Shown piece by piece: positions 2,249 to 58,673 of a stretch of DNA of 64,000 nt (positions within the stretch are counted from its first letter, which is position 1; each line of letters begins with the position of its first letter). The DNA is taken from positions 6,651-70,650 of the IMG/VR virus record IMGVR_UViG_3300035704_000396, one strand, 5' to 3'. Origin of the DNA: a virus. The translations under genes were made by a program, and so were the position numbers. The notes beneath the pieces were generated by a model, which worked only from the letters and a program-made list of their open reading frames with translations, made no database searches and was not told where the DNA came from.

Positions 2249-2353
2249 CGGGTTCCTCCCGGATCGGGACGGGGCACAGGCGGGTGTCGACGGCTGCCCA
2301 GGCCGGGGATGGCCGGCCTGGGCAGCGTCCTGGTGGTGGGCGGTTGTGCACGG

Positions 2354-3220
2354 TCACCGGCCCACCCCCGCCGGCGGCGGGCCGGCCCGGCCGCTCGAAG
2401 CGGGGGTGGGCACGGTGACCGTGGCGGTGGTGGTCGCCGAGTGGTCGCCGATGTCGGTGAGGGTCACCGTGTAGGTGCCGGCCGCGGTGTAGGTGTGCTG
2501 CACCGGCAGCGGCACGACGGCCGTGTCCACCATGTTGGTGTCGCCCCAGTGCAGTGCGGCGCCGTAGGCGCCGAACCCGGCCGGGGTGACGGTGACCGTC
2601 ATCGGGTCGCTGGTGGAGGGTTGCACCGTCAGGCTCAGCTGCAGCGGGCAGCAGTTGCCCCGCACCAGTTGCGCGGTCAGCACGGTGGCGGCGCAGCCGC
2701 CGTCCGGGCCGTCGTGGTGCAGGCTGACGATCTGCCAGTTGACGCCCTGTTGGCCCAGCGGGCCGCACAGAAACGCCCGGTGCAGCGCCATCGCGTCCTG
2801 CACCATGCCGAAGGCGTACCCGTCGACGGTGGCGACGTCCGGCGCGGCGGCGGTCGGGTCCAGGGTGGGGGCACAGCGGTGCACCCCCAACTCCACGGTC
2901 AACAACAATTCGCCGGTGTTGCAGTTGCTGGGCACCCGGTTCAGACCGGACACCCCCAGCTCTGTGGTGGCATTGGTCATCCGCAGCCACGCCGAGCCCT
3001 GCCCGGCCGGCTGGGACGGGTCGTCCTCGCAGGTGCAGTCGCACCAGTCGGCCGGCATCGGGGTGTTGCCGGCGTAGATGACGAACACGCACACCGGCCG
3101 CTGGCTGATGCCCAGCTGGGCGGCGGCGGACAGCCGCAGCTGTTCCAGCACGGGCCACAGCACCGGTTCGGTGTCGGCCATGGTGGGGGCGTCGGCCTGG
3201 TCGGGCGGGCCGGCGGTCAT
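2354..3220 (-). CDS. tail terminator-like protein with C-terminal PKD/Ig-like domain
   Basis: ATGA overlap at 3217-3220; GQGSAWLR, ELGVHRC and GPDGGC motifs typical of actinophage neck proteins; HWGD...HTYTAAGTYTVTLT is a PKD signature. Confidence 0.65.
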   Translation of the reverse strand: MTAGPPDQADAPTMADTEPVLWPVLEQLRLSAAAQLGISQRPVCVFVIYAGNTPMPADWCDCTCEDDPSQPAGQGSAWLRMTNATTELGVSGLNRVPSNCNTGELLLTVELGVHRCAPTLDPTAAAPDVATVDGYAFGMVQDAMALHRAFLCGPLGQQGVNWQIVSLHHDGPDGGCAATVLTAQLVRGNCCPLQLSLTVQPSTSDPMTVTVTPAGFGAYGAALHWGDTNMVDTAVVPLPVQHTYTAAGTYTVTLTDIGDHSATTTATVTVPTPASSGRAGPPPAGVGR

Positions 3221-4206
3221 GGTGTGCTGTCCGGGGTGTAGACGCCGGTGGTGGCCACCGACACCGGGCCGGGCAGGTCCGGGGAGTAGACGGCGGCCGG
3301 CGAGCGGTGCCGGTAGGGGTTGGCCGCCACCACCCACAGGTCCACCTCGGTGATCCCCGTCCGCCCCTCGTCCAGGAAGGACTGCGGGTCGATCTGGTAG
3401 GACACGCCCTGCCGTTGGATTTCGGTGACCCGCGCGGTGATCCGGCAGGCGGCGCCGGTGCACGCGGCGACCAGTTCGGCGGCGAAGATGGCGGCGGCGC
3501 GGCGGCCGCCGGTGGGCACCGGGTGGCCCCGCCAGAAGCTGATGCCGAACGTGCCCTCCTGCGACAGGGGCCGGTCCAGGTGTTGGCTGACCGGCCAGCG
3601 GCCGCCGTCGGTGCGGCCCAGCCGGTCGCCGTTGCCCAGCCACAGCAGCGTTTCGTCGACGGCCAGGCCGTCGACGGTGACGGTGATGCCGCAGCGGGGC
3701 ATCCCGTCGGGGGCGGGCGGCGTGTCGGGTGGCTGCCAGAACACCGGGCCGGGCAGCGGCACCTGGGCGACCGGGCCGCAGCCGCACAGGTCCGGGTCGG
3801 GGTGGTGGCAGCCGATGCGCAGCCACGATTGGCCGCCGGGTAGCGCCGGGTTGAGGTCCAGGCCCGGCCGCCGGCCGTGGAACAGCCGCGGCGGCCGGCA
3901 GGGCCGCACCGTTTCCCGGCACAGCCCGTAGCGGCCGGCGGTCAGGCGCCACAGGATCTCGGAGGCGGTTTCGGCGGCGGCGCATTGCACCGCGTTCCAG
4001 GTGGCCGGGTCGGCGGGCAGCTGCGAACAGCTGGCGTCCAACGGCCAGGTCCGGCACGGCCCGCCGGCGGCCGGGTCCAGCGCCCAGGTGCCGTCGGGTT
4101 GCAGATCCGGCCTGTTCGGCGCCGGGGTGTCGGTGCGCACCGACCCGGGCGGGGTGGTGGGCGTCGACGGGGTCCAGCCGGGTCGCCGCCCGGTGGGCCG
4201 GGTCAT
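3217..4206 (-). CDS. head-to-tail adaptor
   Basis: LWRLTAGRYGLC..TVRPC, RQGVS and TGITEVDLWV..ANP motifs; position after the major tail gene. Confidence 0.75.
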   Translation of the reverse strand: MTRPTGRRPGWTPSTPTTPPGSVRTDTPAPNRPDLQPDGTWALDPAAGGPCRTWPLDASCSQLPADPATWNAVQCAAAETASEILWRLTAGRYGLCRETVRPCRPPRLFHGRRPGLDLNPALPGGQSWLRIGCHHPDPDLCGCGPVAQVPLPGPVFWQPPDTPPAPDGMPRCGITVTVDGLAVDETLLWLGNGDRLGRTDGGRWPVSQHLDRPLSQEGTFGISFWRGHPVPTGGRRAAAIFAAELVAACTGAACRITARVTEIQRQGVSYQIDPQSFLDEGRTGITEVDLWVVAANPYRHRSPAAVYSPDLPGPVSVATTGVYTPDSTP

Positions 4207-5384
4207 CCGGTGCGGCGCCGGCCGCCGCCCTTGCCGCCGGTGTCGCCGCCCGGTTTGGCACCGCCGCTCGGGCCGGCCGGGCTGGCCTCGGAGCTGCTGT
4301 CGGCGGCCGTGTCGGCGGCCGTGTCCGGTTGTTCCAGGCCGGACGCGGCCGGGGTGAACGTGGTGGACACCGGCGTCGCCCCGTTGCCCGGGGTGAACGT
4401 GATGGTCTGTTCGATGCCGGCCTGGTCGGCGGCGTAGGCGTGGCTGGCGACGCCGACGGTGGCGGCCAGCATCGCCGCGATCGTGCCGTCACCCCAGTCG
4501 ACGGTGCCCGCATTGCCCACCAGGGCGAAGTTGGACACGGTCAGGGTGGCCGAGAGGGTGTCGCCGACGGTGGGTGCGGCCGCGAGCTGCGGCGCGGTCG
4601 CGCTGGGGTTCCACAGCGGCCGGCCGCCGCAGGTGGTCACGGGCGGGGCGACGGTGACCAGTTCGCCGTGGAAGTGGTCCGGGTCCGAGGAGACCAGGTC
4701 GATGGCCGGCCAGTCGAAGCCGGGGTCGATCGGGTCCAGCAGCGGCGCGGGCATGCCGTCGATGTCGCGGGTCACGTTGTAGGGGCCGTGTCCCCACAGG
4801 CTGCCCGGCTTGGTCTTGCCTTTGAGCTTGAAGCTCATCGGATTGTTTTCCACGGTCAGGCTGTCCATGCCCAGGGCGATGCAGTAGGGCAGCAGGAAGT
4901 AGCCGCACACCTGGAAGGTGGGGTCGTTGGGGTCGCCGGTCAGGCACGCCTGCCCGGCGCCGGGCCCGGTCACCTTGGGCCACAGTTCCAGGGCGTAGCC
5001 CAACGTGTTGGACACCTGCTGGCCGATGCGGAACCCGGTGGCGGTGCGCCGGGAGGCGTCGGTGACCGTCTTCCAGGTCCGGTTGAGCATCACGTACAGC
5101 GCCGGATCCACCTGGCAGAACTCGAAGTTCAACGCGATGTACTTCACGTTGTCCGGGCCGCGGTCGTTGATGCACAGCTCACCGGCGGCGTTCTTGGCGC
5201 TGTAGTCGTCGCCGTCCTCCACCTCCGGTGCCAGCTCCACCGACACGAACCCCGACGACACCACCTGGCTGTTGGGGCCGTATACGGGTCGCCCGCAGGC
5301 GTCGACCAGGGTGGCGCGCATCCGGCTGGCGCCGATGTAACCGGCACACAGGGCGGCGGGCACGGGCAGCGTGGGAGCGGTCAT
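4203..5384 (-). CDS. major tail protein with C-terminal PKD-like domain
   Basis: Start MTAPTLP coupled (TGATG); RATLVDACG, SGFVSV, KNAAGELC, FCQVDP and ALELW motifs; C-terminal VDWGDGT. Confidence 0.8.
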   Translation of the reverse strand: MTAPTLPVPAALCAGYIGASRMRATLVDACGRPVYGPNSQVVSSGFVSVELAPEVEDGDDYSAKNAAGELCINDRGPDNVKYIALNFEFCQVDPALYVMLNRTWKTVTDASRRTATGFRIGQQVSNTLGYALELWPKVTGPGAGQACLTGDPNDPTFQVCGYFLLPYCIALGMDSLTVENNPMSFKLKGKTKPGSLWGHGPYNVTRDIDGMPAPLLDPIDPGFDWPAIDLVSSDPDHFHGELVTVAPPVTTCGGRPLWNPSATAPQLAAAPTVGDTLSATLTVSNFALVGNAGTVDWGDGTIAAMLAATVGVASHAYAADQAGIEQTITFTPGNGATPVSTTFTPAASGLEQPDTAADTAADSSSEASPAGPSGGAKPGGDTGGKGGGRRRTG

Positions 5385-6343: not shown

Positions 6344-8647
6344 TTACTTGCCGCGGCGGTTGGTCGGCCTGGTCGTGGCCGCCTTGGCCGGCCCGCCGCC
6401 GTCACCGTCGCCGCCGTCGTTGCCCGTCTGCGCGTCGGCGTCCGCGGCGGCGTCGCCGCTGTCGACGCGGTCGCCGGTGGCCGGGTCGTCGGCCGGGGTG
6501 GGTGACACGACGATGTTGCGCGTGGAATCGGCTGTCTCACCGGTGTTGCCGCTGCTGATGTTGACCAGGCCGGCGGTGGGCGGCGGGCAGATGTCGCGGG
6601 CCGGGCCGACCGCGCCGTTGGTGCACAGGTCGGTCAACTGCACGAGGAACGTCCGGTTGCACCGGTTGATCAACATCCAGGCGTCTTCGGTGAACGAGCT
6701 GCTGTACTTGTTCTCCTGCAGCAGCTGCGCGTCGTACTGCACGCCCAGGGTGAGCACGTTGCCCTGCGAGAGCACCCACGATCCTGCCGGGTAGGCCATG
6801 ATGTTGACGGTGGTGGGCCATCCGGCGGGCGGCATGATCCGCCCACCCACGGCGGCGCCGTCACCCAGTTCCTGCCAGTCACGCACCCACTGCACCCGCG
6901 AGCTGTACTGGGCGAACAGGGCGGCGACCTCGGCGTCGGCCACCGCGCCGAAGGGCCTGTTCCGCTTGAGCTCCAGGTCCCGCTTGACGAAGTCCTTGAA
7001 CCACTCCGGAAGCACGACCTCCAACGTGGCGTTGGGCGCCATCTTGTAGCGGTTGCGGAACCACACGAGCAGCAGCCGCAGCCGGTCCACCGCCTCCACT
7101 GCCACCGACCCGGTCGCCGTGTCCGCTCCCGACACCGAGAACGCCGGCAGCACATCGGAGTTGGCCCCGATGTAGGCCAGGTAGGTCGAGTTCATGAAGT
7201 GGTTGTGGTGCACCAGCACGTCGGAGGCGAACCGTTCCTGGCCTTCCGGGAACGTGCGGTCGCGCAGGATGTCCGACTCGATGGACAGGTAGGCCAGGCT
7301 GGCGCGGACTTCCCGCCACGTCACACACGGCCCGGTGATCGACATCTTGACGTTGCCCAGGCCGTCCCCGGGCGGGGTGTCGTCCGCGGCGTGGTGGAAG
7401 TAGGTCGGGTTGTCCAGGCCCGCGCCGGGGCTGGCCGGCGCGGCCGGGTAGGTGATGGCGGTGCCGTGCCAGCCGTTGCGGGTGGCGTCGGCGGACTGGT
7501 CGGGGTATTGCGTCCACTGTGGAAACCGGATGCCGCCGCGGGCGGGCATGCCGGTGGTGGGCAGGTCCAGCATGCCGTCGTCGGTGGCCATCGGCGGACA
7601 CAACGTGTAGTCCGTCTCCGAGGGGGTGCACCACACGTCGTTGATGGTCGAGGGCGCCGTGTCGGCCGCGGTCAACGCGCGCTGCACGGCCGCCACCAGC
7701 GACCCGCCGGGCAGCCGCCGCTCGTCGGCCACGTCGTCCAGGGTGCGGATGTCCCGGTTGTCGCCCATCAGCCGCCGATCCTCGGCGAAATGCCGGGTGA
7801 TGCGGGCGACGTTGGCTTTGATCGGCGCCGACGCGGCCTGCCCGACGGGCAGCGCGGCGAACCGGGCGCAGGCGGCCTCGCCCAGCTCCCGCACCGTCAA
7901 CTGCTGCCCGAACGTGAAATCGGTGTTCTCGGCCGATGCGGTGATCGAGTAGGACCGGGTGATCCGTGCCGGCGCCGGGTCGGCGGGCGGCGCACCCCGG
8001 CCGGACGCGACCGCGGCGGCGGTCGGGGTGCGCCGCGGCACAGGCGGCGGGGGCGCCGAGGCGGCCACCGGCAGCACGTCAGTGGCCGGCTCGGCGGTCT
8101 GTGGTGGGTCCACGGTCGGGGCGGCGGGGGCATCGCCGCCCCGAGCCGTGGACTGCGAACCTGGTGCCGGCTCGGCGCGCTGCGCGGCTGCGCCGGCCCC
8201 ACCAGGTCCCTCGGCCGGGTGTGGGGTCGCCTCGGGAAGCCCGTCGGGAGCCACCTGGCCGGCTTCCCTGGCGCCCTGACCGCCGGGCTGTTGGCCCTCG
8301 CCGGCCGGGTCCTGGACGGGTTCGGCCGGCGACTGGACGCGGTCTGCCAGGGCCGAGACCCGCTGGTCCCTCTCCACCCGTTCCTGATCCCGCTCCAGCT
8401 TCAGCCGGCGCACTGCCTCCGTGACGTCGGCGAGTGCCTCCAGCGTGTCCGCGTCGGCGGGGCGGTAGTCGCCGTCGGCGTAGAGCTCGTTGAACCGCTC
8501 GACGGCGCCACCGTCCAGTTCGGCCAGGTCCACGTCGGGACCGGCCGCCTCGACCAGCGCTGTGTAGACGGCTGCGACCCGCTGTTCACCGGGCGGCGGC
8601 GCGTCCTTGGCGGTGGCAATGCCGAGCAGCTTCTTGAGCAGATCCAC
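6344..8647 (-). CDS. major capsid protein (hexamer-type) with N-terminal scaffold-like extension
   Basis: GTG at 8647 after GGGAGG; coiled-coil plus Pro/Ala linker, then WCTPSETDY.LC, LDLP..RGG, FPE, EVVLPEW, YPAG and FTED motifs. Confidence 0.85.
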   Translation of the reverse strand: MDLLKKLLGIATAKDAPPPGEQRVAAVYTALVEAAGPDVDLAELDGGAVERFNELYADGDYRPADADTLEALADVTEAVRRLKLERDQERVERDQRVSALADRVQSPAEPVQDPAGEGQQPGGQGAREAGQVAPDGLPEATPHPAEGPGGAGAAAQRAEPAPGSQSTARGGDAPAAPTVDPPQTAEPATDVLPVAASAPPPPVPRRTPTAAAVASGRGAPPADPAPARITRSYSITASAENTDFTFGQQLTVRELGEAACARFAALPVGQAASAPIKANVARITRHFAEDRRLMGDNRDIRTLDDVADERRLPGGSLVAAVQRALTAADTAPSTINDVWCTPSETDYTLCPPMATDDGMLDLPTTGMPARGGIRFPQWTQYPDQSADATRNGWHGTAITYPAAPASPGAGLDNPTYFHHAADDTPPGDGLGNVKMSITGPCVTWREVRASLAYLSIESDILRDRTFPEGQERFASDVLVHHNHFMNSTYLAYIGANSDVLPAFSVSGADTATGSVAVEAVDRLRLLLVWFRNRYKMAPNATLEVVLPEWFKDFVKRDLELKRNRPFGAVADAEVAALFAQYSSRVQWVRDWQELGDGAAVGGRIMPPAGWPTTVNIMAYPAGSWVLSQGNVLTLGVQYDAQLLQENKYSSSFTEDAWMLINRCNRTFLVQLTDLCTNGAVGPARDICPPPTAGLVNISSGNTGETADSTRNIVVSPTPADDPATGDRVDSGDAAADADAQTGNDGGDGDGGGPAKAATTRPTNRRGK

Positions 8648-8814
8648 CGTGGGCCTCCCAGACGCACACAGGAACGAGTGTGTGCATCCGGTCACGGTCG
8701 CCAGGCGATGCGAAAAGGCTGTCACCGACCCGCTGCGGGGTTGGGTTGCCTCGTCGCGGAGGATAGCCGCGACCCCCGCACCGGGCGAATCACCCCAGGT
8801 CTGACGCGCCGGGT

Positions 8815-9084
8815 TCACCCATCCGGGGGGTCGTCCACAGTAGCCGCCCCGTAGGCAGCCTCGGCGGCGGTGTCGACGTCGGCGTGGTCGTGCGAGCCCG
8901 GCTCGTGCAGCACGCCGCCGCCGTAGGCGTGGGCCTGGCGGGCCTTCCACTCCTGGTCGAACTCGGCTTGGACGCCGTTGGGGTAGACCACTTTCCACGG
9001 TGCCCGGTTGGGGGGCACCGCTGCCGTGGCCGCCGGTGCCCGGCCAAAGTTGGTCGTGGTGAAACTGCCGCCGCAGCACGCCAT
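8815..9084 (-). CDS. small Cys-start phage protein (MACCGG...)
   Basis: GGAG/GAGG RBS; this type of small gene often sits between head-maturation and capsid genes in actinophages. Confidence 0.65.
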   Translation of the reverse strand: MACCGGSFTTTNFGRAPAATAAVPPNRAPWKVVYPNGVQAEFDQEWKARQAHAYGGGVLHEPGSHDHADVDTAAEAAYGAATVDDPPDG

Positions 9085-9088
9085 GTCC

Positions 9089-11839
9089 TCACGCTCCCTG
9101 TCGGACCCGGTTGGCGGCCGCGGCGATCGCGGCCTGGTTGGTCAGCACCCGCCGCCGCGCGGCCCGCACCCGACCGTCAGCGGCCTGCGCGGCCTGCATC
9201 TGCCGATACAACGTCCACCCGTCCAACGCGCCCCCACCGGCCGCGGTGACGTCGCCGGCGCCGGGTTCGACGTCGGGCACCACGATCCCGGCGGCCACCA
9301 GGGCGACGATCACCCCGTCGTCGGTGATGTCCGCCTCGACGGTCGGGTCGGCCAGCATCACCTGGTCGCCGGCGGCGGCCGCCAACGCGAACACGCTGTC
9401 CGGGCCCAGGTCGAACGCCGGCGCGGTGACCGCGCACGAGGCGATCAGCTCACCTTCCCGCCAGTCCCCGGACTGCGAGTAAACGTCCAAAATGGACACC
9501 TGGAACGGGGCCACTCCGGGTCGCAACGCTCCTGCCGCCCAGATGCCGTAGGCGTCTTCGCCGACCCGCACATTCGCACCGACGAACCTGGGGTCGTCGT
9601 AGTGGGCCTGCGCGGCGGTCATGGTGACCCCACCGCGGGTGGAGGCGTGCCCGCCGGTGGCGATCGGCCCGGTCAACAGGCGTGGCCCTTCCACGGTGCG
9701 CACCGGATGCCGGTGGAAGCGCGGGTAGGAGCCGCCGTGCCGGCAGCGCGGCGGCGGGATCTTGTACACCTCGTGCAGCGCGTCCCACCGGGCGATGTGC
9801 CCGAACACGCGGCCCTCGTCGGTGACGTGCAACTTGGTCGGCCCGGACAGCTGCGGGTTGTCGAACCAGGCGGCCGCCGGCAGGTCGGGCACGTTGGCCG
9901 CGACCTGCTCGGCCCACGACAGCCGGTCCCCGGCGGCTGCGGCGACCGCGCGGGGCGTGGTGCGCGTCCGGGTGCGGCCTTTGCCGCCGCTGGTCTTGGC
10001 CCAGGGCGGGGTGCGGCGCATCTTCGTGTAGTAGGCGCCGATCTTGGCTTGCACGCCGGCCTTGTCCGAGTCGGGCATGTCGGTCTGGGACAGCCGGGCC
10101 GCGGCCGCCGACACACCGGCGGGCACCGCGACCAGTTCGCCGTCGACGACGGTGGCGAACGGCAGCGAGAAGTCGCCCTGTTTCGGGCCGTCCGGGCCGG
10201 CCGCCGACCGCTGGAAGAACGCGCGCCCGTACTTGGCCCAGTCCAGGGTGCCCGACGGTCGGGTCGCCCACTTCTTCACCTTGGCGACCGCGTCGTCGCG
10301 GCTCCACCGGGTGGCCTGGTCGGCCAGGCGCAGCCGGGTCGCGCCGGACGTGGCCGCGGTGACCTGGGTGTCGTCTGGCTCGTCGACCGGTGGGCCCTCG
10401 ACCGACTCGCCGTCGACCGGCTGGCTTTCGACGTCTGCCTGGTCGACGTCCGGGCCTTCGACGTCAGGCTGCTCACCGGTCGGCTCCGGTGCCGCGCCAG
10501 GCTGGTCGCCGGGGTCGACCTGTGCCGGGCGGCTGGCCGGGTCGGCGTCGGCCGGGTCGCCATCCGGCTGGCCGGCAGCAGTGACCGGGTCGGGTCCGTC
10601 GGCCGACTGCGCGGTCGGCGGTGCCGGCGGCTCGCCTCCCGGTTCCGGCGCCGGATCCGCCGGCGGCGCGCCGGCCGGATCAACGGCGGGCGCGGTATCC
10701 GGGTCGGTGGCCGGCGCCGACGCCGGCCCCGGTGGCGTCGGCGCCGACGTCTGTGTGCTGGCGGGGCCGGCCGCGGCCACCGTGGTGCCAGCGGTCGCAG
10801 CCTTGGACACGGTTGGTCCCATGGTCATGCTCCTCGAATGGGCGGTGGACGGTGCGCTGGACAGTGCAGTGAACGCCGCGGTGGACGCCGCACTGGACGG
10901 TGCGCTGGACGCTGCGGTGGCCGTCGCGCTGACGCCGATGCCGTCCACCCAGTCCAGGACGCACCGGCACATGATCACCTGATCGGGTGCGCCGGCCGGG
11001 TCGTGTGGATAGCGCATCGACGAGCCGCCCACGTCGAAGCTCTCGTCGGCGCCGACCACCGTGCCGTCGACGTCCATGTGGGTGGGCCGGGTGCGCCTGT
11101 CCCCCACGGCCACCCACTGCTTGTAGAGGGTGTCGCCGTAGGTGCGGACCCGGGCCATCCCGGCGGCGTAGGTGCCGGCGTTGCGGGCGGCCAGCGACTC
11201 GTTGCGGGCGATCATCACCGTGCGTCCGGCCCACCGGGCCAGGGTCAGCACGTTGGCCACCCGCTCGCGCAGCAGCGCCAACGGTTCGCGGGTGCTCACC
11301 GACAGGACCATCTGGGCGACTACCGCGTCGTAGACGTCGTCGGGCCAGGACGCGTCGTTGAGGCGGGCGGCGGCGTCGGCCAGGTGCTCGGCCAGGAAGT
11401 CGTCGGCGGACAGCTCGTCGGCCTGCTGCTGCGAGAGCGTGTCGTCCCAGCCCTCCCGCCACACGGTGCCGGTGGCCGACACCACGCCGACCACGGCGGC
11501 CTGCCACACCGAGCGGTGTGGCCAGGCGTCCAGGTTGGGTGGCAGGTCGGCGGCGGCCGCGTCGGCCACGACCTGGGCCAGCTGTGCGGCGACGTCGGTG
11601 TCCCGGTCCAGCAGCGCCGCCCGTGCGGCGTGCAGGAACCGGCGCAACGCCTGCTCGACTTTCGGCTGCAGCAGCTGCTCGGCGCGCAGGACCGCCAGGT
11701 GTCCGCGCATCGCGGCCGGTAGCCACGGCTCGCGTCCAGTCGGCAAGGCACACCACCACCGAGGGTCGTGTGCCCGGTCATGGCCACCAGCCGGCACCAA
11801 GTCTGTGCTGTCGGTGTGCAGGGTATCGCCGCAGGCCAT
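9089..11839 (-). CDS. MuF-like head morphogenesis protein fused to capsid-maturation-associated C-terminal domains
   Basis: KQWVAVGDRRTRPTH...MRYPHDP..VIMCRC (MuF); LDWAKYGRAFF..LPFA domain; WFDNPQL.GPT.L.VTDEGRVFGHIA.W domain; start could instead be 11710. Confidence 0.75.
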   Translation of the reverse strand: MACGDTLHTDSTDLVPAGGHDRAHDPRWWCALPTGREPWLPAAMRGHLAVLRAEQLLQPKVEQALRRFLHAARAALLDRDTDVAAQLAQVVADAAAADLPPNLDAWPHRSVWQAAVVGVVSATGTVWREGWDDTLSQQQADELSADDFLAEHLADAAARLNDASWPDDVYDAVVAQMVLSVSTREPLALLRERVANVLTLARWAGRTVMIARNESLAARNAGTYAAGMARVRTYGDTLYKQWVAVGDRRTRPTHMDVDGTVVGADESFDVGGSSMRYPHDPAGAPDQVIMCRCVLDWVDGIGVSATATAASSAPSSAASTAAFTALSSAPSTAHSRSMTMGPTVSKAATAGTTVAAAGPASTQTSAPTPPGPASAPATDPDTAPAVDPAGAPPADPAPEPGGEPPAPPTAQSADGPDPVTAAGQPDGDPADADPASRPAQVDPGDQPGAAPEPTGEQPDVEGPDVDQADVESQPVDGESVEGPPVDEPDDTQVTAATSGATRLRLADQATRWSRDDAVAKVKKWATRPSGTLDWAKYGRAFFQRSAAGPDGPKQGDFSLPFATVVDGELVAVPAGVSAAAARLSQTDMPDSDKAGVQAKIGAYYTKMRRTPPWAKTSGGKGRTRTRTTPRAVAAAAGDRLSWAEQVAANVPDLPAAAWFDNPQLSGPTKLHVTDEGRVFGHIARWDALHEVYKIPPPRCRHGGSYPRFHRHPVRTVEGPRLLTGPIATGGHASTRGGVTMTAAQAHYDDPRFVGANVRVGEDAYGIWAAGALRPGVAPFQVSILDVYSQSGDWREGELIASCAVTAPAFDLGPDSVFALAAAAGDQVMLADPTVEADITDDGVIVALVAAGIVVPDVEPGAGDVTAAGGGALDGWTLYRQMQAAQAADGRVRAARRRVLTNQAAIAAAANRVRQGA

Positions 11840-11854: not shown

Positions 11855-12265
11855 TCAGGCGGCGGGTCGGCCCAGACAGCCCGATGCGTCGATCATCCTG
11901 GCCAGCACGCTGCGGCTGTGGTCCTTGCCCGCGCACACGGCGGTGCGCAGGTAGCATTCCAACGCTTCGCGCACGCACTGCGCGGTTTGCGCGTCGTGCG
12001 GCGCGGTCCGGTCGTAGAAGTCCAGGGCGTGGTCGAGCAGGGCGTCGATGTCCATGCCGGCCGCGGAGATCACCGTGTGCCGCTGGAAGCGGTCGACCGA
12101 GCGCAGCGGCCCGGCGTGGTGGCGGGCGGCGCGGCCCACCTTGTGCATCAGCCTGCCGCCGACGATCTCCAGGGCGTGCAGCGCGGCCAGTTCGGCGTAG
12201 GACACGACCCATTCGCGGTAGTCGTCGCCGGCGCGGTCGGGGGTGTGGTGGTGGGACGTGGTCAT
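11855..12265 (-). CDS. stand-alone protein resembling the C-terminal helical domain of actinophage portals
   Basis: AELAALHALEIVGGRL...HTVI...DALLDHA...ALECYLR..G.DH pattern; occupies the portal position; GGAG RBS. Confidence 0.5.
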   Translation of the reverse strand: MTTSHHHTPDRAGDDYREWVVSYAELAALHALEIVGGRLMHKVGRAARHHAGPLRSVDRFQRHTVISAAGMDIDALLDHALDFYDRTAPHDAQTAQCVREALECYLRTAVCAGKDHSRSVLARMIDASGCLGRPAA

Positions 12266-15665: not shown

Positions 15666-15954
15666 GCTACCGGCACACCTTGGTCGGAGCGTCACGATAG
15701 CCGATCGGCCCAGTTGCGACTGTGCAACGCGGGTGCGTCGACGGCACGATTCGGCTACATCGAGCCCCGCGGCGTCGCCGCCGACCGGTTGAACGCATGC
15801 AGGTCGCCAAACGATCAACCCATCGGGTACCCTTGGCGACGCCACCGTTCCGTGCCTTCTGGGCGCGAACATTTTCTCGCTTTGGTGGTGGGAAAACAGG
15901 CAACCGGGCCCCCGACCTCTGGTCGGGGGCCCGGCTTGATGTCCAGCCGACGGT

Positions 15955-17740: not shown

Positions 17741-17834
17741 CCGTCTCGTGCACGGGCGTGCACGAGACGTCACCACGGATCGGGCCCGCCCCACCCACCA
17801 CCAAGCAGGAATCCGCCGAGGCACAGGAGGATCG

Positions 17835-18290
17835 ATGGGCCGCACACGCAGCCGCAACCGCCGCCGTCGCCAAGTCCTGGCACAGCAGGTGTTCCACCTG
17901 GAACTGCTGCTGGCGACCGAGCCGGACCAGCCGAGCCGGCGCCAGCCGGGCAGGCGCCGGTTGCGGCTGCAACTGCGCCGGGCCCGCAACGAGTACGCCG
18001 GCCTGGTGATCGGCACCACCGTGTCCCCGAACCTGCGCCGGTCGCCGCCCGCGGTGGACGTCCACCAACAGCGGTGGCAGCGGCCGACCGCTGTCCCACC
18101 AGGCCGCTGCCAGGGTCGCTGCTGCCGGGTTCCCCTCGACGCCGTCGACCAGTACCTGCTGCTGGTGCCAGCGCCGCGCGCCCGGCCTGCCATCGCCGCG
18201 GACCTGGGCGCCCTGTCCCCGAACCTGCGCCGGCCGGTGCCCACGGCTCCCGGCCCGGCCGGCGCCACGTGCCTGGGCGGTGCCCGGTGA
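17835..18290 (+). CDS. hypothetical basic protein
   Basis: AGGAGG RBS; internal SPNLRR repeat; coupled to the next gene. Confidence 0.6.
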   Translation: MGRTRSRNRRRRQVLAQQVFHLELLLATEPDQPSRRQPGRRRLRLQLRRARNEYAGLVIGTTVSPNLRRSPPAVDVHQQRWQRPTAVPPGRCQGRCCRVPLDAVDQYLLLVPAPRARPAIAADLGALSPNLRRPVPTAPGPAGATCLGGAR

Positions 18291-23191: not shown

Positions 23192-23290
23192 CCCGGCTTC
23201 GGCCGTTCCCGGGCGGGCCAGCGCCACACCAGCGCTGGCCCGGCCCGGAATCAGCCGAAACCCACCACCAGGCTTGGAAGGGAGGCCCGC

Positions 23291-26232: not shown

Positions 26233-26282
26233 TCATCCGAGTGTCGGCAGCCGCTGTTTCCCACCACTAGCAGGGAGTTCCC

Positions 26283-26971: not shown

Positions 26972-27035
26972 CCACCGCCGGCGGCACCCCAGCCTGCGCC
27001 GGCGTCTTTCCACCAACTACTCGAGGAGAACCCCC

Positions 27036-27656: not shown

Positions 27657-27706
27657 CCGACCCACTGGGTCGGGTGTCATTTCCCACCACCACTGAAGGA
27701 GAACCC

Positions 27707-29449: not shown

Positions 29450-29490
29450 TTTCGGTCCCTTTGGTGGTGGGTTTGGTGGTGCTTCGCCGG

Positions 29491-30674: not shown

Positions 30675-30840
30675 GGCACCCCCTTTGGGCCGGGGCGGCG
30701 GCCCGGGCCTGTCCGTGGTGGTGGGAAAGTGTGCCCGCGCGGGGCGGGGCACACGGACGGGCACGATGGTCGCCGCGGTGGCGGCGGTGGGGCCTCGGCT
30801 CGATCGGGGGTCCAAACCGAGGCCACACCACCCGTCGGGG

Positions 30841-38864: not shown

Positions 38865-39376
38865 CGGGTGTCGCGGACTGTGGCGAACCTGCGGTCGCCT
38901 TCACACATCCAGTGGTCGAACCTGTGCCGCATGACGTGCCCGACGATCAGCAGGTCGTCGAACGCGGGCCCCTGGTTGCGCCAGGTCTGCTGGTGTAGCT
39001 CGTCGATCGGTTGCCAGCGGGCGGTGGCGGTGCGCGGTGGGACCGGGGCGGCGAGCACGGCCCCGTACGCGGCGGTGATCACTTCGCCGTGGGCGCCCCG
39101 CGCGGGCACGTCGAAGATCCCGGCGAACCGCAGTTCGGCGGGATGCACGGTCAGGCCGGTCTGTTCGGCCAGGGCCAGCGATGCCGCGTCGACCGGGTCT
39201 CGGCCGCCCAGCAACGCGAAGGGCAGTTCGGGCAGCCCGGCGAACGGGGCGGCCGGTCGGGTGACCATCAGGACGTGGCAGGCGTGGTCGCGGTTGCCGC
39301 GGTGCAGAAGCACCGCGGCCGCCGCCCACTGCAGGGGCGCGTTGAGCGCGGCCAGCGGGTGTCGGGATGTGCGCAT
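38861..39376 (-). CDS. NUDIX-fold protein with degenerate NUDIX box
   Basis: VLMVTR...PFAG..ELP, AAS.ALAEQTGL, D.P.R and AFDD..IV motifs; catalytic Glu residues substituted. Confidence 0.6.
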   Translation of the reverse strand: MRTSRHPLAALNAPLQWAAAAVLLHRGNRDHACHVLMVTRPAAPFAGLPELPFALLGGRDPVDAASLALAEQTGLTVHPAELRFAGIFDVPARGAHGEVITAAYGAVLAAPVPPRTATARWQPIDELHQQTWRNQGPAFDDLLIVGHVMRHRFDHWMCEGDRRFATVRDTR

Positions 39377-39430
39377 GGTGGTGGGGAGGTCCGTTCGCTT
39401 GGTGGTGGGAATGGTGGTGGGACGGGTCGG

Positions 39431-41642: not shown

Positions 41643-41687
41643 GGGGTTCCTCGCGTGGTGGTGGGAGTTGGTGAGCGTGGTGGGATT

Positions 41688-45586: not shown

Positions 45587-45677
45587 GCGGTCCTCGCTCA
45601 TCTGGTGGTGGGGCTCCCGGCCCGGGTCGCTCCCACGTGATCCCGGGCGGAGGGTTGTGGTGAAGTGGAACAAGATC

Positions 45678-46929: not shown

Positions 46930-47607
46930 TCACTTGGTGGTGGGGTAGTCGGCCGCCCAGGCGCGCAACCGTGCCCGTGCGTTGGCCGCGATCCGGTCCA
47001 ACGTCTCGGCGTGCATCGGCACGCCGTGCAGGCGCACGGTCCAGCCACGGCGCACCCGGGCGGCGTAGATCCGCATCCGCCACGCCTCGTCGGCGGCCCG
47101 CAGCATGGTGCGTTGGGCGCTGGTGCGGCGCCGCCGCGTCGGGATCGGCCAGGGATAGCCGGCGTCCCGGATCATCGCCAGCTTGGCCGGGAACGCGCCG
47201 CGTCGGCGAGGCACGGGCACGGGTGCGGCCGGGTGTGGTCGCGGTGCCAGGATCTTCGGTTGCGGGGCGGCCACCGGCCGTGCAGGCAGCCGTGCAGGCG
47301 GTGGTGCCGGCGGTGGTGGTGGCTTGGTCGGGGCGTCGGGCCGCGGTGGCGCCGGCGTGGCCGACTCCTGGTGCGGCTGCGCCGATGTCGGCCCGACCGG
47401 TTCGCGCTCGGGCGGCCCAGCGGGCGCCGGGGCGGTGCACAGCTGGCGGCACGACCGGCACATGCCGTCGTCCACGTCGAGGTGACGTATGTCCAACAGC
47501 CGCCGGTCCTTCGCGCATACCTGGCACAGGCCCAGCTCGTCGGCCTGGTCGCCGGCGTGGAGTACCAGCTGCGTGCTGGCCGCCGGTGGGACGTCGTGGC
47601 CGGCCAT
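46930..47607 (-). CDS. zinc-ribbon and Pro-rich hypothetical protein
   Basis: CQVC...CRSC; TGATG coupling. Confidence 0.55.
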   Translation of the reverse strand: MAGHDVPPAASTQLVLHAGDQADELGLCQVCAKDRRLLDIRHLDVDDGMCRSCRQLCTAPAPAGPPEREPVGPTSAQPHQESATPAPPRPDAPTKPPPPPAPPPARLPARPVAAPQPKILAPRPHPAAPVPVPRRRGAFPAKLAMIRDAGYPWPIPTRRRRTSAQRTMLRAADEAWRMRIYAARVRRGWTVRLHGVPMHAETLDRIAANARARLRAWAADYPTTK

Positions 47608-48077: not shown

Positions 48078-48165
48078 CGCTTTTCCTTTGGTGGTGGGAA
48101 AATCCGGCGTCACCGCCGGGGTCGTGGGTGCCGGCGTGGCAGGCCCGCCGGCGGGTCGGTGCTGC

Positions 48166-49682: not shown

Positions 49683-49760
49683 GGTCGGTCCTTCGGTTTG
49701 GTGGTGGGGGTCGCGGGCCGGCGCCGGCCACCCGAGGTCATGTGGCCGGCGCCGGGGGTC

Positions 49761-50866: not shown

Positions 50867-50908
50867 CGGTGCCTCGCTTGGTGGTGGGGTGTGGTGGTGG
50901 GTGTTGGG

Positions 50909-51328: not shown

Positions 51329-51359
51329 CGGGTTGTCCTCGCTTGGTGGTGGGTGGCGG

Positions 51360-53453: not shown

Positions 53454-53481
53454 GGCGGGTTCTCCCTGGGTGGTGGTGGGG

Positions 53482-54123
53482 TTAGGACCGGCCGCCGCGG
53501 TGGGCGGCGACGAGCAGGCCGTCAGCGGCGACGGTGAACCGGGCGGTGTAGCCGATCTCGCCGTAGCCTTCGTCTTCGCGGGTCAGGTTCACCGTGTACA
53601 GGCGGCGGCAGCGGCAGCAGGCGGCCAGGCGGGGAACGTCGGCCAGGGCCGGCAGTCGCACCGCCCGGTCGCAGCAGGGCAGTTCGGCGAGCACGAACCG
53701 GCCGGTGCGACCGTGGGCGTCGGCTTCGGTCCACCGGTCGGCGCTGTCGCCGACCAGCAGGTCGTCCAGGTCGCCGACGGTGACGGCGGCGGCGATGTGG
53801 CGGTAGCGGCGTGGCTGCGGATCCTGGTGGGCCAGCCGGTGGGTGGCGGCGTCGTCGGTGTCGATGACCACGTCGGTCCGCACCAACACGTGACTGTCGA
53901 GCGACACGGTGCGCACCACCCGGTCGAACAGGGAGGTGCGCAGCTGGAAGTGGACGCGGTCGCTGGTTTCCTGCACGTGCTGGACCACGGCCCATTCGCC
54001 CAGGTACGAGGCGAGCATGCCGACCTTCAGGTCGGTGGCCGGAAGGTGGTCGGACTGGGACGGGCCGCCGTCCGGCCCGGCCTGTTGCAGGCCGGGCACG
54101 GCGTCGGCCGGCAGGGTGATCAC
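53482..54123 (-). CDS. hypothetical protein with zinc-ribbon-like Cys pairs
   Basis: PCCD and CCRC; GTGA coupling. Confidence 0.65.
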   Translation of the reverse strand: MITLPADAVPGLQQAGPDGGPSQSDHLPATDLKVGMLASYLGEWAVVQHVQETSDRVHFQLRTSLFDRVVRTVSLDSHVLVRTDVVIDTDDAATHRLAHQDPQPRRYRHIAAAVTVGDLDDLLVGDSADRWTEADAHGRTGRFVLAELPCCDRAVRLPALADVPRLAACCRCRRLYTVNLTREDEGYGEIGYTARFTVAADGLLVAAHRGGRS

Positions 54124-55112
54124 GAGTCACCCCGTGCTTCCAGCCAGGCGATGACGTCGCCCCAGCGTTCACGCACCGCCACCAGGTCGGACCGCTCGGC
54201 CTCCATCGCGTTGGTGGACGCCGCCCACTGGGCCTCGTCCCGGTACTGGGCGACCGCGTCACGGATCAGCCCGTCCAGCACAGTCGGGTCCAGCGCGTCC
54301 AGCTCCCACGACTCGCCGCCGTAGCGGGCGATGTAGCCGGTGGCCCGCGAATCGGTCAGCTTCGCCGGGTTGGGCGGCGGCTGGAACTGTTGGATCTGCG
54401 CCATGTTCAGCGCGATCCGCACCACCTTGGTGGAGGCGCCGAACAGGGTCAACCGGTCGGTGACGTCGCGGGTCATGTCCACACCGGACGGGTCGTGGTC
54501 GCCGAGGTGGATCACCACTACTTTCTGCCCGCGCCGCTCATAGCCGATGTGCCGACGTGCCGCAGCCCACAGCTCGGACTGGCTGGTGTAGCCACGGCAG
54601 GAGAACCACGGCACGTCCAGCGCTTCAGCGGTCCGGCCGATCACGCCGGTCAGGGCGTCCTTCTCCACCCAGACCTCCACCCGGTAGGGCTGGTGGGCCC
54701 ACCGGTCGGTGCGGTACTGGGTGGCGACCGCGTCGATGATCGATTCGGGGTCACGCCAGTGCGCCAGGTCGCGCAGGTTGCGGGTCCGGTCGACCAGGTG
54801 GTCCCAGTCCATGACGCCGGCTAGCCGCGCGTCGTTGACCAACGAGCCCAGCCACTTGTAGTTGGGGTCGGCGTTCTTCGTCGACGCCGGGTTGGTGTGC
54901 TCAGGATCGGCGATCCACTTGCGGCTGTTCTCGTTCCACCAGAACCAGCGTGCCTCCGGGAAAATGTCCCTAGAAATGAACTGGTAGTAGAGCTGCCGCA
55001 GCGTCAGGTCGAAGCCCTGGGCGGCGTAGTCCTGGCAGACCGCGTCAGCCAGGTCGATGACCGCGCGGCTGCCTGCCGAGAACCGTCTTTCGACGTAGGT
55101 GATGCGTGGCAC
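54120..55112 (-). CDS. TopoVI-A/Spo11-like (wHTH + Toprim) protein
   Basis: LTLRQLYYQ, EVWVEKDAL, CRGY.S, GDHDPSG (DxD) and WELDAL motifs. Confidence 0.85.
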   Translation of the reverse strand: MPRITYVERRFSAGSRAVIDLADAVCQDYAAQGFDLTLRQLYYQFISRDIFPEARWFWWNENSRKWIADPEHTNPASTKNADPNYKWLGSLVNDARLAGVMDWDHLVDRTRNLRDLAHWRDPESIIDAVATQYRTDRWAHQPYRVEVWVEKDALTGVIGRTAEALDVPWFSCRGYTSQSELWAAARRHIGYERRGQKVVVIHLGDHDPSGVDMTRDVTDRLTLFGASTKVVRIALNMAQIQQFQPPPNPAKLTDSRATGYIARYGGESWELDALDPTVLDGLIRDAVAQYRDEAQWAASTNAMEAERSDLVAVRERWGDVIAWLEARGDS

Positions 55113-55480: not shown

Positions 55481-55523
55481 GGGTTGGCTCCTGGTAGTTG
55501 TCAGGTGGTGGTGAACTACCGAC

Positions 55524-57984: not shown

Positions 57985-58230
57985 TCACGTCCGGGTGGCG
58001 CGGCGCCGGCTGATCGCCTCCCGTGCTGCCGACCGGCGGTTGTCGAACGCCAGGTCGGGGACGTCCGGGTGGACGTAGAACCACTCGCCGACCGCCTGGC
58101 GTTGCCGGTGGCCCAGCCGGTGCGACGCGGCCCGGTCGGCCCGCTGCTGGCTGGTGTAGCGCTGGAACCGGCGTTCGACGCGCCGCATCTGGGCGGCCAA
58201 CTCGGGATCGTCCGGGGTCCGGTCAGGCAC
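57985..58230 (-). CDS. small basic hypothetical protein
   Basis: GEWFYVHPDVPDLAF motif. Confidence 0.6.
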   Translation of the reverse strand: MPDRTPDDPELAAQMRRVERRFQRYTSQQRADRAASHRLGHRQRQAVGEWFYVHPDVPDLAFDNRRSAAREAISRRRATRT

Positions 58231-58275
58231 TGGTGAACGCCACCTTGACCACCCGCGGATCGGTGGTCACCGCCA

Positions 58276-58521
58276 TCACTGCGCGGTGGTGGCGGCGGGG
58301 GGCTGGATGTCGGCGGCGATGACCTGCTCGGCGGTGACGTCTTCGACCAGCGCCGAGCAGAACCCTGGGGTGTCGTCGGCGGTGATGCCCAACTTGGAGC
58401 CGATGCCGTTGACGGTGCCGGTCAACTGCCGGTGTCCGTGGACGAACGTCACGCGCAACGATTCGTCGCGGTCCATGCCGCGGAACGCGGCGCGCAGCAG
58501 TGCAAGCGGGTAGTAGGCCAT
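58276..58521 (-). CDS. hypothetical protein
   Basis: AGGAG RBS; downstream of a promoter-like element. Confidence 0.65.
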   Translation of the reverse strand: MAYYPLALLRAAFRGMDRDESLRVTFVHGHRQLTGTVNGIGSKLGITADDTPGFCSALVEDVTAEQVIAADIQPPAATTAQ

Positions 58522-58673
58522 GTCCGTGCGTCTCCTGTGGTGGTGGGGTCGTGTTGCGGTACAACATGATCAGTCTATCCACAGTGGACCTGCAGGACCA
58601 GCGGGTTGGGCGTTCAGGGCGCGCACGGTTGCCGTGGAACGGGTCACACGGGGGCGGCTGGTCGGCGCCAGTG

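What the first reader, a model, noticed from the sequence alone, without database searches (positions are those of the whole stretch)
2331..58547. Element-wide start-associated decamer CCCACCACCA upstream of non-coupled genes
Seen: about 21 exact intergenic or gene-boundary copies, all in the sense orientation of the downstream gene and mostly 10-20 nt before the start codon, just 5' of the SD. Plus strand: 17794, 23261 (traB), 27683. Minus strand: 2331, 15883, 29462, 30716, 39376/39400/39412 (triple), 41656, 45603, 46935, 48089, 49699, 50879/50892 (double), 51344, 51949, 53471, 58538. Variants occur at 26260, 27010 and 55506. I noticed only one antisense copy (1480, within a CDS). The motif flips strand with gene direction, is absent at ATGA/GTGA-coupled junctions and is nearly absent from capsid/tail genes. 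Known analogy: start-associated sequences of cluster K mycobacteriophages. Inference: an RNA-level control system for early and transfer genes (translational enhancer or standby site, RNA-binding protein site, or processing site), or a microhomology for gene-cassette shuffling.
Basis: partly seen in the sequence, partly recalled or inferred. Interest (0 to 1): 0.85.

Follow-up and report, generated by a model that had tools for sequence, protein, structure and literature searches.

The report
Private start-codon tag of a phage-plasmid
A soil phage-like plasmid element places the exact ten-letter word CCCACCACCA just ahead of the ribosome-binding site of about twenty of its separately started non-structural genes, which looks like a private gene-expression tag similar to the still unexplained start-associated sequences of some mycobacteriophages.

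Summary
CCCACCACCA occurs 23 times in the window against 0.37 expected and 29 times on the 70,650-bp contig against 1.7 expected. All 25 intergenic copies are sense to the downstream gene. 19 of 25 lie 8-25 nt before the start codon, against 7.2 expected when each copy is re-placed within its own gap. No coupled gene carries it (0 of 39); 21 of 68 uncoupled genes do.

It lies inside leaders and intercistronic spacers, just 5' of the SD. It is predicted single-stranded (0.74 vs 0.40), and its genes are ATG-enriched (18/20 vs 46/85). The exact word is selected, not general C/A-richness.

It is private to this element:
- relatives' whole records: 0-1 copies
- 80 related early-region loci: at most 1 copy
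- 61 genomes of a likely host order: no more than control

I found no mirror-image sRNA, no special 16S pairing and no Cluster-A-type repressor.

Best reading (0.42): an mRNA-level, sequence-specific start-associated tag. Main rival (0.22): a DNA-level, stoperator-like site. This scan has noted different start-associated words in other phages. Verdict: new variant of a known kind.

The parts
1480..1489 (+). Exact decamer, the only antisense copy, inside CDS 951-1556 (-); probably chance
2331..2340 (-). Exact decamer 14 nt after the stop of 2354-3220, followed by a strong hairpin; 82 nt before GTG 2248. In the fold its first 6-7 nt pair with an upstream GGGUGGG
   Evidence: sense-strand fold z = -3.6
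12246..12255 (-).
15883..15892 (-). Exact decamer abutting a terminator-like hairpin plus T-run; 10 nt before ATG 15872 (150-aa ORFan upstream of ParA/ParB)
17794..17803 (+). Exact decamer 31 nt before ATG 17835 (ORFan coupled to the WhiB-domain gene 18287-18907)
23261..23270 (+). Exact decamer 20 nt before GTG 23291 (733-aa FtsK/TraB-like protein)
27683..27692 (+). Exact decamer abutting a terminator-like hairpin plus T-run; 14 nt before ATG 27707
29462..29471 (-). Exact decamer 12 nt before ATG 29449, preceded by a partial CACCACCA
30716..30725 (-). Exact decamer between two hairpins in the long leader of 29491-30396 (319 nt from ATG 30396); not start-proximal
39376..39421 (-). Three exact decamers (39376, 39400, 39412) before ATG 39376; the last A of the proximal copy is the A of the ATG
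41656..41665 (-). Exact decamer 13 nt before ATG 41642 (GmrSD_C-like protein). In run X2's variant no listed change falls in the decamer; the adjacent base 41655 differs
45603..45612 (-). Exact decamer 16 nt before ATG 45586 (phrog_421 protein)
46935..46944 (-). Exact decamer 20 nt before ATG 46914; overlaps the last codons of the upstream gene 46930-47607
48089..48098 (-). Exact decamer after a hairpin plus TTTT; 11 nt before ATG 48077
49699..49708 (-). Exact decamer 16 nt before ATG 49682
50879..50901 (-). Two exact decamers (50879, 50892), 12 and 25 nt before ATG 50866
51344..51353 (-). Exact decamer 15 nt before ATG 51328, 12 nt after the upstream stop codon
51949..51958 (-). Exact decamer 19 nt before GTG 51929, 17 nt downstream of a TAGGAT -10-like box
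53471..53480 (-). Exact decamer 17 nt before ATG 53453
58538..58547 (-). Exact decamer 16 nt before ATG 58521, 24 nt downstream of a TAGACT box that follows the palindrome GTCCACTGTGGA
26260..26269 (+). One-mismatch variant CCCACCACTA after a T-run; 13 nt before ATG 26283
27009..27018 (+). Degenerate variant TCCACCAACT (3 mismatches) after a T-run, before GAGGAG and ATG 27036
55506..55515 (-). Two-mismatch variant TTCACCACCA, 9-10 nt downstream of a TAGGAT box, before AGGAG and ATG 55480
4152..4161 (-). One-mismatch variant CCCACCACCC, 11 nt before the start of the head-tail adaptor gene 3217-4140

Best explanation
CCCACCACCA is a lineage-private start-associated tag that acts on the mRNA.

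Shown:
- It is transcribed as part of 5' leaders, starting 17-25 nt downstream of -10-like boxes, and as part of intercistronic spacers.
- It sits 0-11 nt 5' of the Shine-Dalgarno element of about 21 independently initiated, mostly non-structural cistrons.
- It is predicted to be single-stranded.
- It is kept as an exact word.

Inferred:
- This position is where mRNA leaves the 30S subunit (the standby zone; recalled knowledge, not from a call). There the tag would serve as a docking site for one sequence-specific trans-acting reader.
- Translationally coupled genes need no tag because they inherit ribosomes from the upstream cistron.
For: - Enrichment and privacy.
- Orientation: 25 of 25 intergenic copies are sense. 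Position: 19 of 25 lie 8-25 nt from the start against 7.2 expected within their own gaps.
- Coupling: 0 of 39 coupled genes against 21 of 68 uncoupled genes carry it.
- Location in transcripts: the copies lie downstream of, never inside, -10-like boxes (6 genes; sequences). Others lie directly after upstream stop codons.
- At 46935 the word overlaps the last codons of the upstream gene and still keeps 20 nt to the next ATG.
- Predicted unpaired probability is 0.74 for 19 tagged genes, against 0.40 at the equivalent place of 39 untagged uncoupled genes.
- ATG starts: 18 of 20 tagged genes against 46 of 85 others, Fisher p = 0.004. A DNA roadblock has no reason to care about start-codon identity. 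Cluster K SAS show the same bias, 80 of 93.
- The distribution is bimodal: 20 genes have the exact word, 5 of 39 have a variant with 2 or fewer mismatches, and the rest are at background. This points to a sequence-specific reader, not a composition effect.
- The flanks are not conserved beyond about 3 nt, so the copies are not duplicated segments.
Against: - There are no expression data: no RNA run is listed for this DNA, so transcription, 5' ends and translation effects are all unobserved.
- No reader was identified. Pfam and PHROGs found no RNA-binding domain among the roughly 90 proteins scanned.
- Exact conservation of an asymmetric word co-oriented with transcription is also what a DNA-binding repressor site looks like.
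- Four copies directly abut terminator-like hairpins, so those genes need read-through for the tag to be in RNA at all.
- SD strength is the same with and without the tag, so no compensatory role is visible.
- Two intergenic copies (2331, 30716) are not start-proximal.
- Start codons are my own calls, and the caller mildly favours ATG.
Confidence: 0.42

Rival explanations
1. DNA-level oriented repressor site, working like the stoperators of Cluster A mycobacteriophages. A monomeric regulator of the element binds the asymmetric 10-bp word and blocks elongating RNA polymerase at the entrance of each uncoupled gene, silencing the set during plasmid or prophage carriage.
For: - 29 copies of an asymmetric word, 28 of 29 syn-oriented with transcription, dispersed in short intergenic spaces. 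This matches the description of stoperators in passages of PMC9283540 and PMC6550527.
- Near-exact conservation is typical of protein-DNA sites.
- The element is temperate or plasmid-like (ParA/ParB) and so needs silencing.
- Copies sit about +10 to +18 of the predicted transcripts, a workable roadblock position.
Against: - 0 of 7 promoter-proximal copies overlap a -10-like box, whereas some Cluster A sites are true operators inside promoters.
- The element has separate palindromic operator-like boxes at its promoters.
- The position tracks the SD and start codon even in gaps of 99-241 nt.
- ATG enrichment and predicted single-strandedness are unexplained by a DNA site.
- The three positional repressor candidates have no sequence match to the solved Cluster A repressor.
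- Relatives have no related word, unlike Cluster A, where motif and repressor co-vary across relatives.
Confidence: 0.22
2. Passive C/A-rich, G-free unstructured platform (ribosome standby site or translational enhancer) that needs no specific reader. The identical spelling would reflect recent spread or copying, not recognition.
For: - The word contains no G or T and is predicted unpaired.
- It lies immediately upstream of the SD. ACA-containing C/A-rich enhancer sequences lie there in enterobacterial GcvB targets (abstract of PMC3879156).
- Degenerate C/A versions occupy the same position at 27009 and 55506.
Against: - 34 of 39 untagged uncoupled genes have no C/A tract above the level of coupled genes (median longest A/C run 5 in both).
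- 20 exact copies against 5 variants with 2 or fewer mismatches is not what a composition requirement gives.
- The flanks are unrelated, so the copies are not recent duplications of larger pieces.
- The decamer itself contains no ACA.
- SD strength does not differ.
Confidence: 0.12
3. Single-element promoter read by an element-specific sigma-like factor, giving each tagged gene its own short-leader transcript.
For: - This would explain the sense orientation, the absence at coupled junctions, and the copies that directly follow terminator-like hairpins with no room for another promoter.
Against: - Spacing to the start varies from 10 to 23 nt.
- In at least 8 sites an SD-like element begins 0-4 nt after the word (sequences). 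A sigma-type -10 element there would leave the SD out of the transcript.
- The word has no T, unlike actinobacterial TANNNT boxes (recalled).
- Pfam found no sigma factor or RNA polymerase among the proteins scanned.
- Six tagged genes already have a -10-like box 17-25 nt upstream.
Confidence: 0.07
4. RNA processing or stability signal: a single-stranded C-rich cleavage or entry site that separates cistrons of polycistronic transcripts.
For: - Intercistronic, single-stranded, often flanked on the 5' side by stable hairpins.
- From recall, mycobacterial RNase E prefers to cut 5' of cytidines in unpaired RNA.
Against: - A nuclease preference does not need an exact decamer.
- The recalled RNase E consensus includes a U, which the word lacks.
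- Six copies lie close to predicted 5' ends, where no separation is needed.
- ATG enrichment is unexplained.
Confidence: 0.07
5. Recombination linker: microhomology at gene boundaries that promotes cassette exchange.
For: - It lies at gene boundaries.
- There are tandem copies at three genes.
- An earlier scan note reports a junction motif marking swap points in another phage (e1-3296527, unchecked).
Against: - Recombination needs neither the sense orientation (25 of 25) nor a fixed distance to the SD and start.
- No other retrievable element carries the word, so there is no exchange partner.
- The ends of X2's variant contig pieces do not coincide consistently with the decamers (table 8).
Confidence: 0.04

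Closest known systems
Start-associated sequences (SAS) of Cluster K mycobacteriophages (Pope et al. 2011, PMC3203893; passages read)
   Same: - A short asymmetric word in many copies per genome.
- One orientation, immediately upstream of start codons.
- Confined to non-structural genes.
- ATG-enriched.
- Sometimes overlaps the upstream gene's end.
- Essentially absent from host-like genomes.
- Function still untested (the limitations paragraph of PMC12699233).
   Different: - SAS is the 13-mer GGGATAGGAGCCC. It occupies the RBS position 3-7 bp from the start and contains the AGGAG core.
- Here the word is a G-free 10-mer that lies 5' of a separate SD, 10-23 nt from the start.
- The SAS consensus is absent here (0 hits at 2 or fewer mismatches).
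- There are no ESAS-like inverted repeats.
- SAS is shared across Cluster K subclusters; this word is not shared by relatives at 37-58% capsid identity.
Stoperator and operator sites of Cluster A mycobacteriophages (L5 gp71, TipsytheTRex repressor; PMC9283540 and PMC6550527, passages read)
   Same: - 20-30 asymmetric sites per genome.
- Dispersed in short intergenic spaces.
- Syn-oriented with transcription.
   Different: - Stoperators are 13-14 bp double-stranded DNA sites. Some lie inside promoters and some inside genes, and they are read by a known two-domain monomeric repressor.
- Here none overlaps a -10-like box.
- The position tracks the SD and start.
- No such repressor was found by sequence.
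C/A-rich (ACA) translational enhancers upstream of the SD that are silenced by the G/U-rich sRNA GcvB (Yang et al. 2014, PMC3879156; abstract read)
   Same: A G-poor C/A element immediately upstream of the SD in the mRNA of a set of genes.
   Different: - Those enhancers are degenerate and depend on ACA. Here an exact decamer without ACA is kept.
- No exposed complementary RNA was found on the element.
Start-associated tags noted by this scan in other phages, several said to be mirrored by a phage sRNA (e1-6079712, e1-6118604, e1-5889633, e1-3276128; AI notes, unchecked by me)
   Same: A private word, sense-oriented, just before the starts of a fraction of non-structural genes. One of them (CCCTACCAC, from a soil prophage) is also C/A-rich.
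   Different: Here the only exact mirror copy lies inside a CDS (1480), and the partial mirrors are buried in stems. The sRNA reading is therefore not supported for this element.

Membership tests
Cluster K SAS | Short asymmetric repeat in many copies per genome (11-19 in Cluster K) | tested here: met
   29 exact copies on the 70.65-kb contig
Cluster K SAS | Consensus GGGATAGGAGCCC with 2 or fewer deviations | tested here: not met
   0 matches in the window at up to 2 mismatches
Cluster K SAS | Occupies the RBS position 3-7 bp from the start codon and contains the AGGAG core | tested here: not met
   The decamer has no G. It ends mostly 10-23 nt before the start, with a separate SD between
Cluster K SAS | One orientation; non-structural genes; ATG-enriched | tested here: met
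   25 of 25 intergenic copies sense. One intergenic copy in the virion operon. ATG 18 of 20 against 46 of 85
Cluster K SAS | About half of sites carry an extended SAS (17-bp imperfect inverted repeats upstream) | tested here: not met
   No conservation beyond about 3 nt either side in the flank profile of 26 sites
Cluster K SAS | Shared across related phages; absent from the host genome | tested here: inconclusive
   Relatives have 0-1 copies and 80 early-region loci at most 1, so it is not shared. 61 genomes of a likely host order are at control level.
Cluster A stoperators | 20-30 asymmetric 13-14-bp sites syn-oriented with transcription | tested here: met
   29 sites, 28 syn-oriented. Length is 10 bp, with weak preferences at 3 flanking positions
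Cluster A stoperators | A subset are true operators inside promoters | tested here: not met
   0 of 7 promoter-proximal copies overlap a -10-like box; they start 17-42 nt downstream. The promoter calls are consensus-based only
Cluster A stoperators | Monomeric repressor with an HTH plus a second stoperator domain | tested here: inconclusive
   No PDB sequence match for 3 positional candidates. Pfam finds only HTH_31/DUF5753 regulators, ParB and WhiB. No fold comparison was done
Cluster A stoperators | Repressor binding blocks elongation in an orientation-dependent way | not testable with these tools
   Needs reporter and binding assays
C/A-rich (ACA) enhancers targeted by an sRNA | C/A-rich element just upstream of the SD in the mRNA | tested here: met
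C/A-rich (ACA) enhancers targeted by an sRNA | A complementary G/U-rich seed in a trans-acting sRNA | tested here: not met
   No Rfam family. The only exact mirror is in a CDS. Partial mirrors are paired in stems. Opposite-strand folds at 2331 and 30716 are not significant. A host-encoded sRNA cannot be excluded

The most novel reading that the evidence does not exclude
The decamer is an mRNA address label read by a dedicated single-strand-specific RNA-binding protein, encoded among the element's ORFans. The protein would gate translation of the roughly 21 tagged early, accessory and transfer cistrons as one regulon. This would be a translational counterpart of the stoperator system, letting a phage-plasmid switch between quiet carriage and lytic or transfer programmes without changing transcription.
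Probability: 0.25. Interest if true: 0.8.

Novelty: new variant of a known kind. Interest (0 to 1): 0.55.

Why it matters
Start-associated sequences were described in 2011 and remain functionally untested. The limitations paragraph of a 2025 comparative paper says so.

This element offers an unusually clean second example with a different design. The tag is physically separate from the SD, G-free, exact, and present in 29 copies. The contributions of tag and SD could therefore be separated in reporters, which is not possible for the Cluster K SAS because it contains the SD core.

It could also yield a portable translational control module for Streptomyces-type hosts.

If the word turns out to be a DNA roadblock site, it would extend stoperator-like silencing beyond mycobacteriophages. 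Either outcome is informative.

Tried and rejected
**16S rRNA pairing.** The longest complement in the 16S of the Kutzneria relative's host is 7 nt, and 1442 of 2000 shuffled motifs do as well or better. Rejected, with the caveat that this is a proxy host.

**Mirror-image sRNA** (lead).
- The only exact mirror copy is in a CDS, at 1480.
- Partial mirrors at (+)32094, (-)57935 and (-)11751 are paired in stems.
- Opposite-strand folds at 2331 and 30716 give z of about -1.1, and I saw no AT-rich -10 box nearby in the sequence.
- There is no Rfam hit.

**KOPS- or Chi-like polar sequences.** Rejected by reasoning: such words are not start-proximal.

**Finding elements that share the word.**
The best candidates had 2-6 copies per record, near control.
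- Megablast of 20 kb against phages and plasmids: no hit in phages, and one 96-bp hit in plasmids.
- Protein anchors gave only relatives at 27-66% identity.

**Own words in relatives.** G001's ACTGGGGCGA is a coding repeat, and its CCAGTTGAG is tied to a promoter box. The repeated 10-mers in the 80-locus panel are tandem coding repeats or iteron-like arrays.

**Expression.** No RNA holder is listed for this DNA.

**Contigs of run X2.** They show a diverged variant, but the list of differences is truncated (1264 not shown), so site-by-site conservation could not be scored.

**Other limits.**
- The consensus promoter and terminator scanner is too strict for this GC content and found few sites.
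- Supplementary tables of the SAS and stoperator papers were not seen. They may hold exact site-to-start distances that bear on the comparison.

Full report
**What the element is.**
- The window is bases 6651-70650 of a single 70,650-bp contig at 72% G+C. The tools treat it as a virus record.
- PHROGs identify a major head protein (6344-9079), a head-tail adaptor (3217-4140), a major tail protein (4203-5384) and a MuF/portal-like protein (9089-11710).
- Pfam adds ParB, ParA, two HTH_31/DUF5753 regulators, a WhiB-domain protein, a weak FtsK/SpoIIIE (TraB-like) hit just under the curated cut-off, an SLT transglycosylase, Dam, GmrSD_C, a UvrD helicase and DpdA.
- The nearest capsid relatives are at 50-66% identity. 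Where a source names them, they come from Amycolatopsis, Saccharothrix, Kutzneria and Prauserella.
- TraB-like hits in plasmids are at about 30% identity in Streptomyces and Kitasatospora.
- It is therefore a phage-plasmid-like element of a high-GC actinomycete. The host is unknown.

**The observation.**
- CCCACCACCA occurs 23 times in the window against 0.37 expected, and 29 times on the contig. It is the top-ranked 10-mer there, against 1.66 expected under an order-3 Markov model.
- With my gene calls (corrected), 25 copies are intergenic and all 25 are sense to the downstream gene.
- Of the four copies in or overlapping a CDS, three are sense and one (1480) is antisense. That gives 28 of 29 sense (p = 1.1e-7).
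- Nineteen of the 25 intergenic copies end 8-25 nt before the start codon. Random placement of each copy within its own gap gives a mean of 7.2 and never more than 17 in 20,000 trials.
- In the 15 cases where the gap exceeds 60 nt, the distances are 10-22 nt for 11 copies and 31, 38, 51 and 82 nt for the rest.
- No gene with an upstream gap of 10 nt or less has the word (0 of 39). Among the others 21 of 68 do, including 7 of 11 genes with gaps of 26-60 nt.
- At 46935 the word is written into the last codons of the upstream gene and still keeps 20 nt to the next ATG.

**Where it sits in transcripts.**
- The flanks carry no conserved sequence beyond about three positions on either side. The copies are therefore independent, apart from one paralogous pair outside the window.
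- Six tagged genes have a -10-like box (TAGACT, TAGGCT, TAGGAT or TAGAAT) 17-25 nt upstream of the word. These boxes are often next to palindromes such as GTCCACTGTGGA or ATCATGAT. One such promoter is also called by the strict consensus scanner.
- In those genes the word starts at roughly +10 to +18 of the predicted leader.
- Other copies follow the upstream stop codon by a few bases.
- Four exact copies directly abut a stable hairpin plus T-run. The scanner independently calls two of these as terminators.
- An SD-like element follows the word after 0-11 nt.
- The word is therefore a leader or intercistronic element, not a promoter core.

**RNA-level indicators.**
- In folds of -70 to +40 around the start, the decamer has a mean unpaired probability of 0.74 in 19 tagged genes. 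The equivalent stretch of 39 untagged uncoupled genes scores 0.40.
- Tagged genes start with ATG in 18 of 20 cases, against 46 of 85 for all other genes (p = 0.004). Cluster K SAS show the same bias, 80 of 93.
- Predicted SD strength is the same with and without the tag (-7.5 against -7.0 kcal/mol, p = 0.72). The tag does not compensate for poor SDs.
- The distribution of best matches upstream of genes is bimodal. Twenty genes have an exact copy, and 5 of 39 untagged uncoupled genes have a variant with 2 or fewer mismatches.
- The remaining genes are at background. The median longest A/C-only run is 5 in both untagged uncoupled and coupled genes. What is conserved is the word, not a composition, which implies a sequence-specific reader.

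**Privacy.**
- Five relatives at 37-58% capsid identity, scanned as whole records of 24-91 kb, have 0-1 copies, the same as the reversed-word control.
- My gene-call and upstream-word pipeline finds CCACCACC before 23 genes here against 1.4 expected. In four relatives no upstream word occurs more than 7 times.
- Eighty loci (1.16 Mb) around relatives of the early protein 54120-55112 contain the word in only 2 loci, once each.
- In 61 genomes of the order that contains Kutzneria, the word is no more frequent than its reversed control. For example, one 10.2-Mb genome has 136 against 150, about 13 per Mb. The element has 29 in 70.65 kb, about 410 per Mb (one of the 61 genomes is unpublished, and the claim does not depend on it).
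- The tools may withhold records very near the window, so sister strains cannot be judged.
- A second soil metagenome run holds 28% of the sampled words of a 9-kb stretch, which indicates a diverged variant. At the one site that a listed contig covers, no listed difference falls inside the decamer and the adjacent base differs. The list is truncated, so this is weak.

- The word has no unusual complement in a proxy host's 16S rRNA.
- There is no Rfam family on the contig, and only one doubtful ARAGORN tRNA.
- Following a lead from earlier notes of this scan, that such tags can be mirrored by a phage sRNA, I looked for mirror copies. The only exact one lies inside a CDS (1480). Three partial ones in non-coding contexts are buried in stems.
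- The two atypical, hairpin-flanked copies (2331, 30716) do not fold significantly on the opposite strand (z about -1.1).
- On the sense strand the 2331 locus is significantly structured (z = -3.6), with the first 6-7 bases of the word paired to an upstream GGGUGGG. I cannot interpret this possible cis-sequestered copy further.
- Three positional repressor candidates have no sequence match to the solved Cluster A repressor. Pfam and PHROGs give no RNA-binding domain.

**Weighing the explanations.**
- Three findings favour action on the mRNA at translation initiation: the tie to the SD and start codon even in long gaps and across a gene end, the ATG bias, and the predicted single-strandedness. 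The exactness of the word favours a specific reader. I put this at 0.42.
- A DNA-level, stoperator-like site explains orientation, dispersion and exactness equally well, and it has an experimentally proven precedent in actinophages. It does not explain the ATG bias or the SD tracking. None of the copies is in a promoter core, the element has separate palindromic operator-like boxes, and no matching repressor was found. I put it at 0.22.
- A passive C/A standby site (0.12) is weakened by the bimodal distribution.
- A single-element promoter (0.07) is weakened by the variable spacing and by SDs that begin right after the word.
- A processing site (0.07) and a recombination linker (0.04) have little specific support.

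**Comparison with what is known.**
- The behaviour matches Cluster K SAS, but the defining sequence and placement do not. The SAS consensus is absent, the word lies 5' of the SD and does not contain it, there is no ESAS partner, and relatives do not share it.
- It is therefore not a member of that family. It is a new variant of the same kind of feature.
- For the decamer itself in print, a full-text search returned 318 papers. The 15 listed were unrelated uses such as primers and repeats, and I did not inspect the rest. The search for 'start-associated sequence' plus 'phage' returned 8 papers: Cluster K phage papers, one broader mycobacteriophage review that mentions them, and one Citrobacter phage genome announcement.
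- This scan has noted other private start-associated words in other phages. The phenomenon may be more common than the literature suggests.

Noticed in passing
window 42104-42134, 44693, 51987, 55535; 58586; contig base 3148 (window -3503, in L121): Recurrent promoter-region boxes. ATCATGATAGGAT includes a 31-bp perfect palindrome at 42104-42134. GTCCACTGTGGATAGRCT pairs a palindrome with a -10-like box. They look like conventional operators of one or two regulators, and another note of this scan flags them (e1-6188196).
   Followed up: partly
contig bases 311, 885, 2655 (window -6339, -5765, -3995, in L121) and window 61571: A conserved box of about 25 nt ending in ccacaa(a/g)(a/t)cAAATAGCG. 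In three of the four cases a GC-rich hairpin and an AT-rich promoter-like stretch follow it. It lies upstream of several small tagged genes.
   Followed up: no
window 2255-2400 (-): A significantly structured intergenic RNA (z = -3.6) within the virion operon. One decamer copy is paired to an upstream GGGUGGG, followed by a 13-17-bp hairpin. It could be a cis-sequestered or decoy copy, or a terminator.
   Followed up: partly
window 30640-30930: A long structured leader upstream of gene 29491-30396. It holds a palindrome (GGTCTACCAATACC...GGTATTGGTAGACA) in the divergent promoter region shared with the HTH/DUF5753 regulator gene 30997-31875, and a decamer copy between two hairpins.
   Followed up: partly
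window 58113-58194 (+): ARAGORN calls a tRNA-Ser(GCT) that overlaps my ORF 57985-58230 (-). Rfam gives no tRNA hit at gathering score, so one of the two calls is doubtful.
   Followed up: no
window 54120-55112 (-): This 330-aa ORFan has no Pfam hit but has 234 relatives in viral contigs across a very wide GC range (0.30-0.73) at 43-66% identity. It is a widespread phage early protein of unknown function.
   Followed up: no
relative record G001 (L130-L134), 49.5-90.6 kb: Eight copies of a promoter-like box GATATGATTAC. Several are followed within 5-14 nt by CCAGTTGAG in the leader, which is a different, promoter-linked word in a relative at 57% capsid identity. The same record has 10 coding DWGDG repeats at 15-21 kb.
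   Followed up: partly
L121:880-1464 (-): A 194-aa protein with a HAD_SAK_2 domain (the HAD domain of Swiss Army Knife RNA repair proteins; E = 1.4e-6, just above the cut-off). It is preceded by the one-mismatch variant CCCACCACCG.
   Followed up: no
window 6344-9079 (-): The major head protein ORF is 767-911 aa, with a long N-terminal extension before the capsid fold region (PHROG match from residue 184). Relatives are 643-1016 aa long.
   Followed up: no
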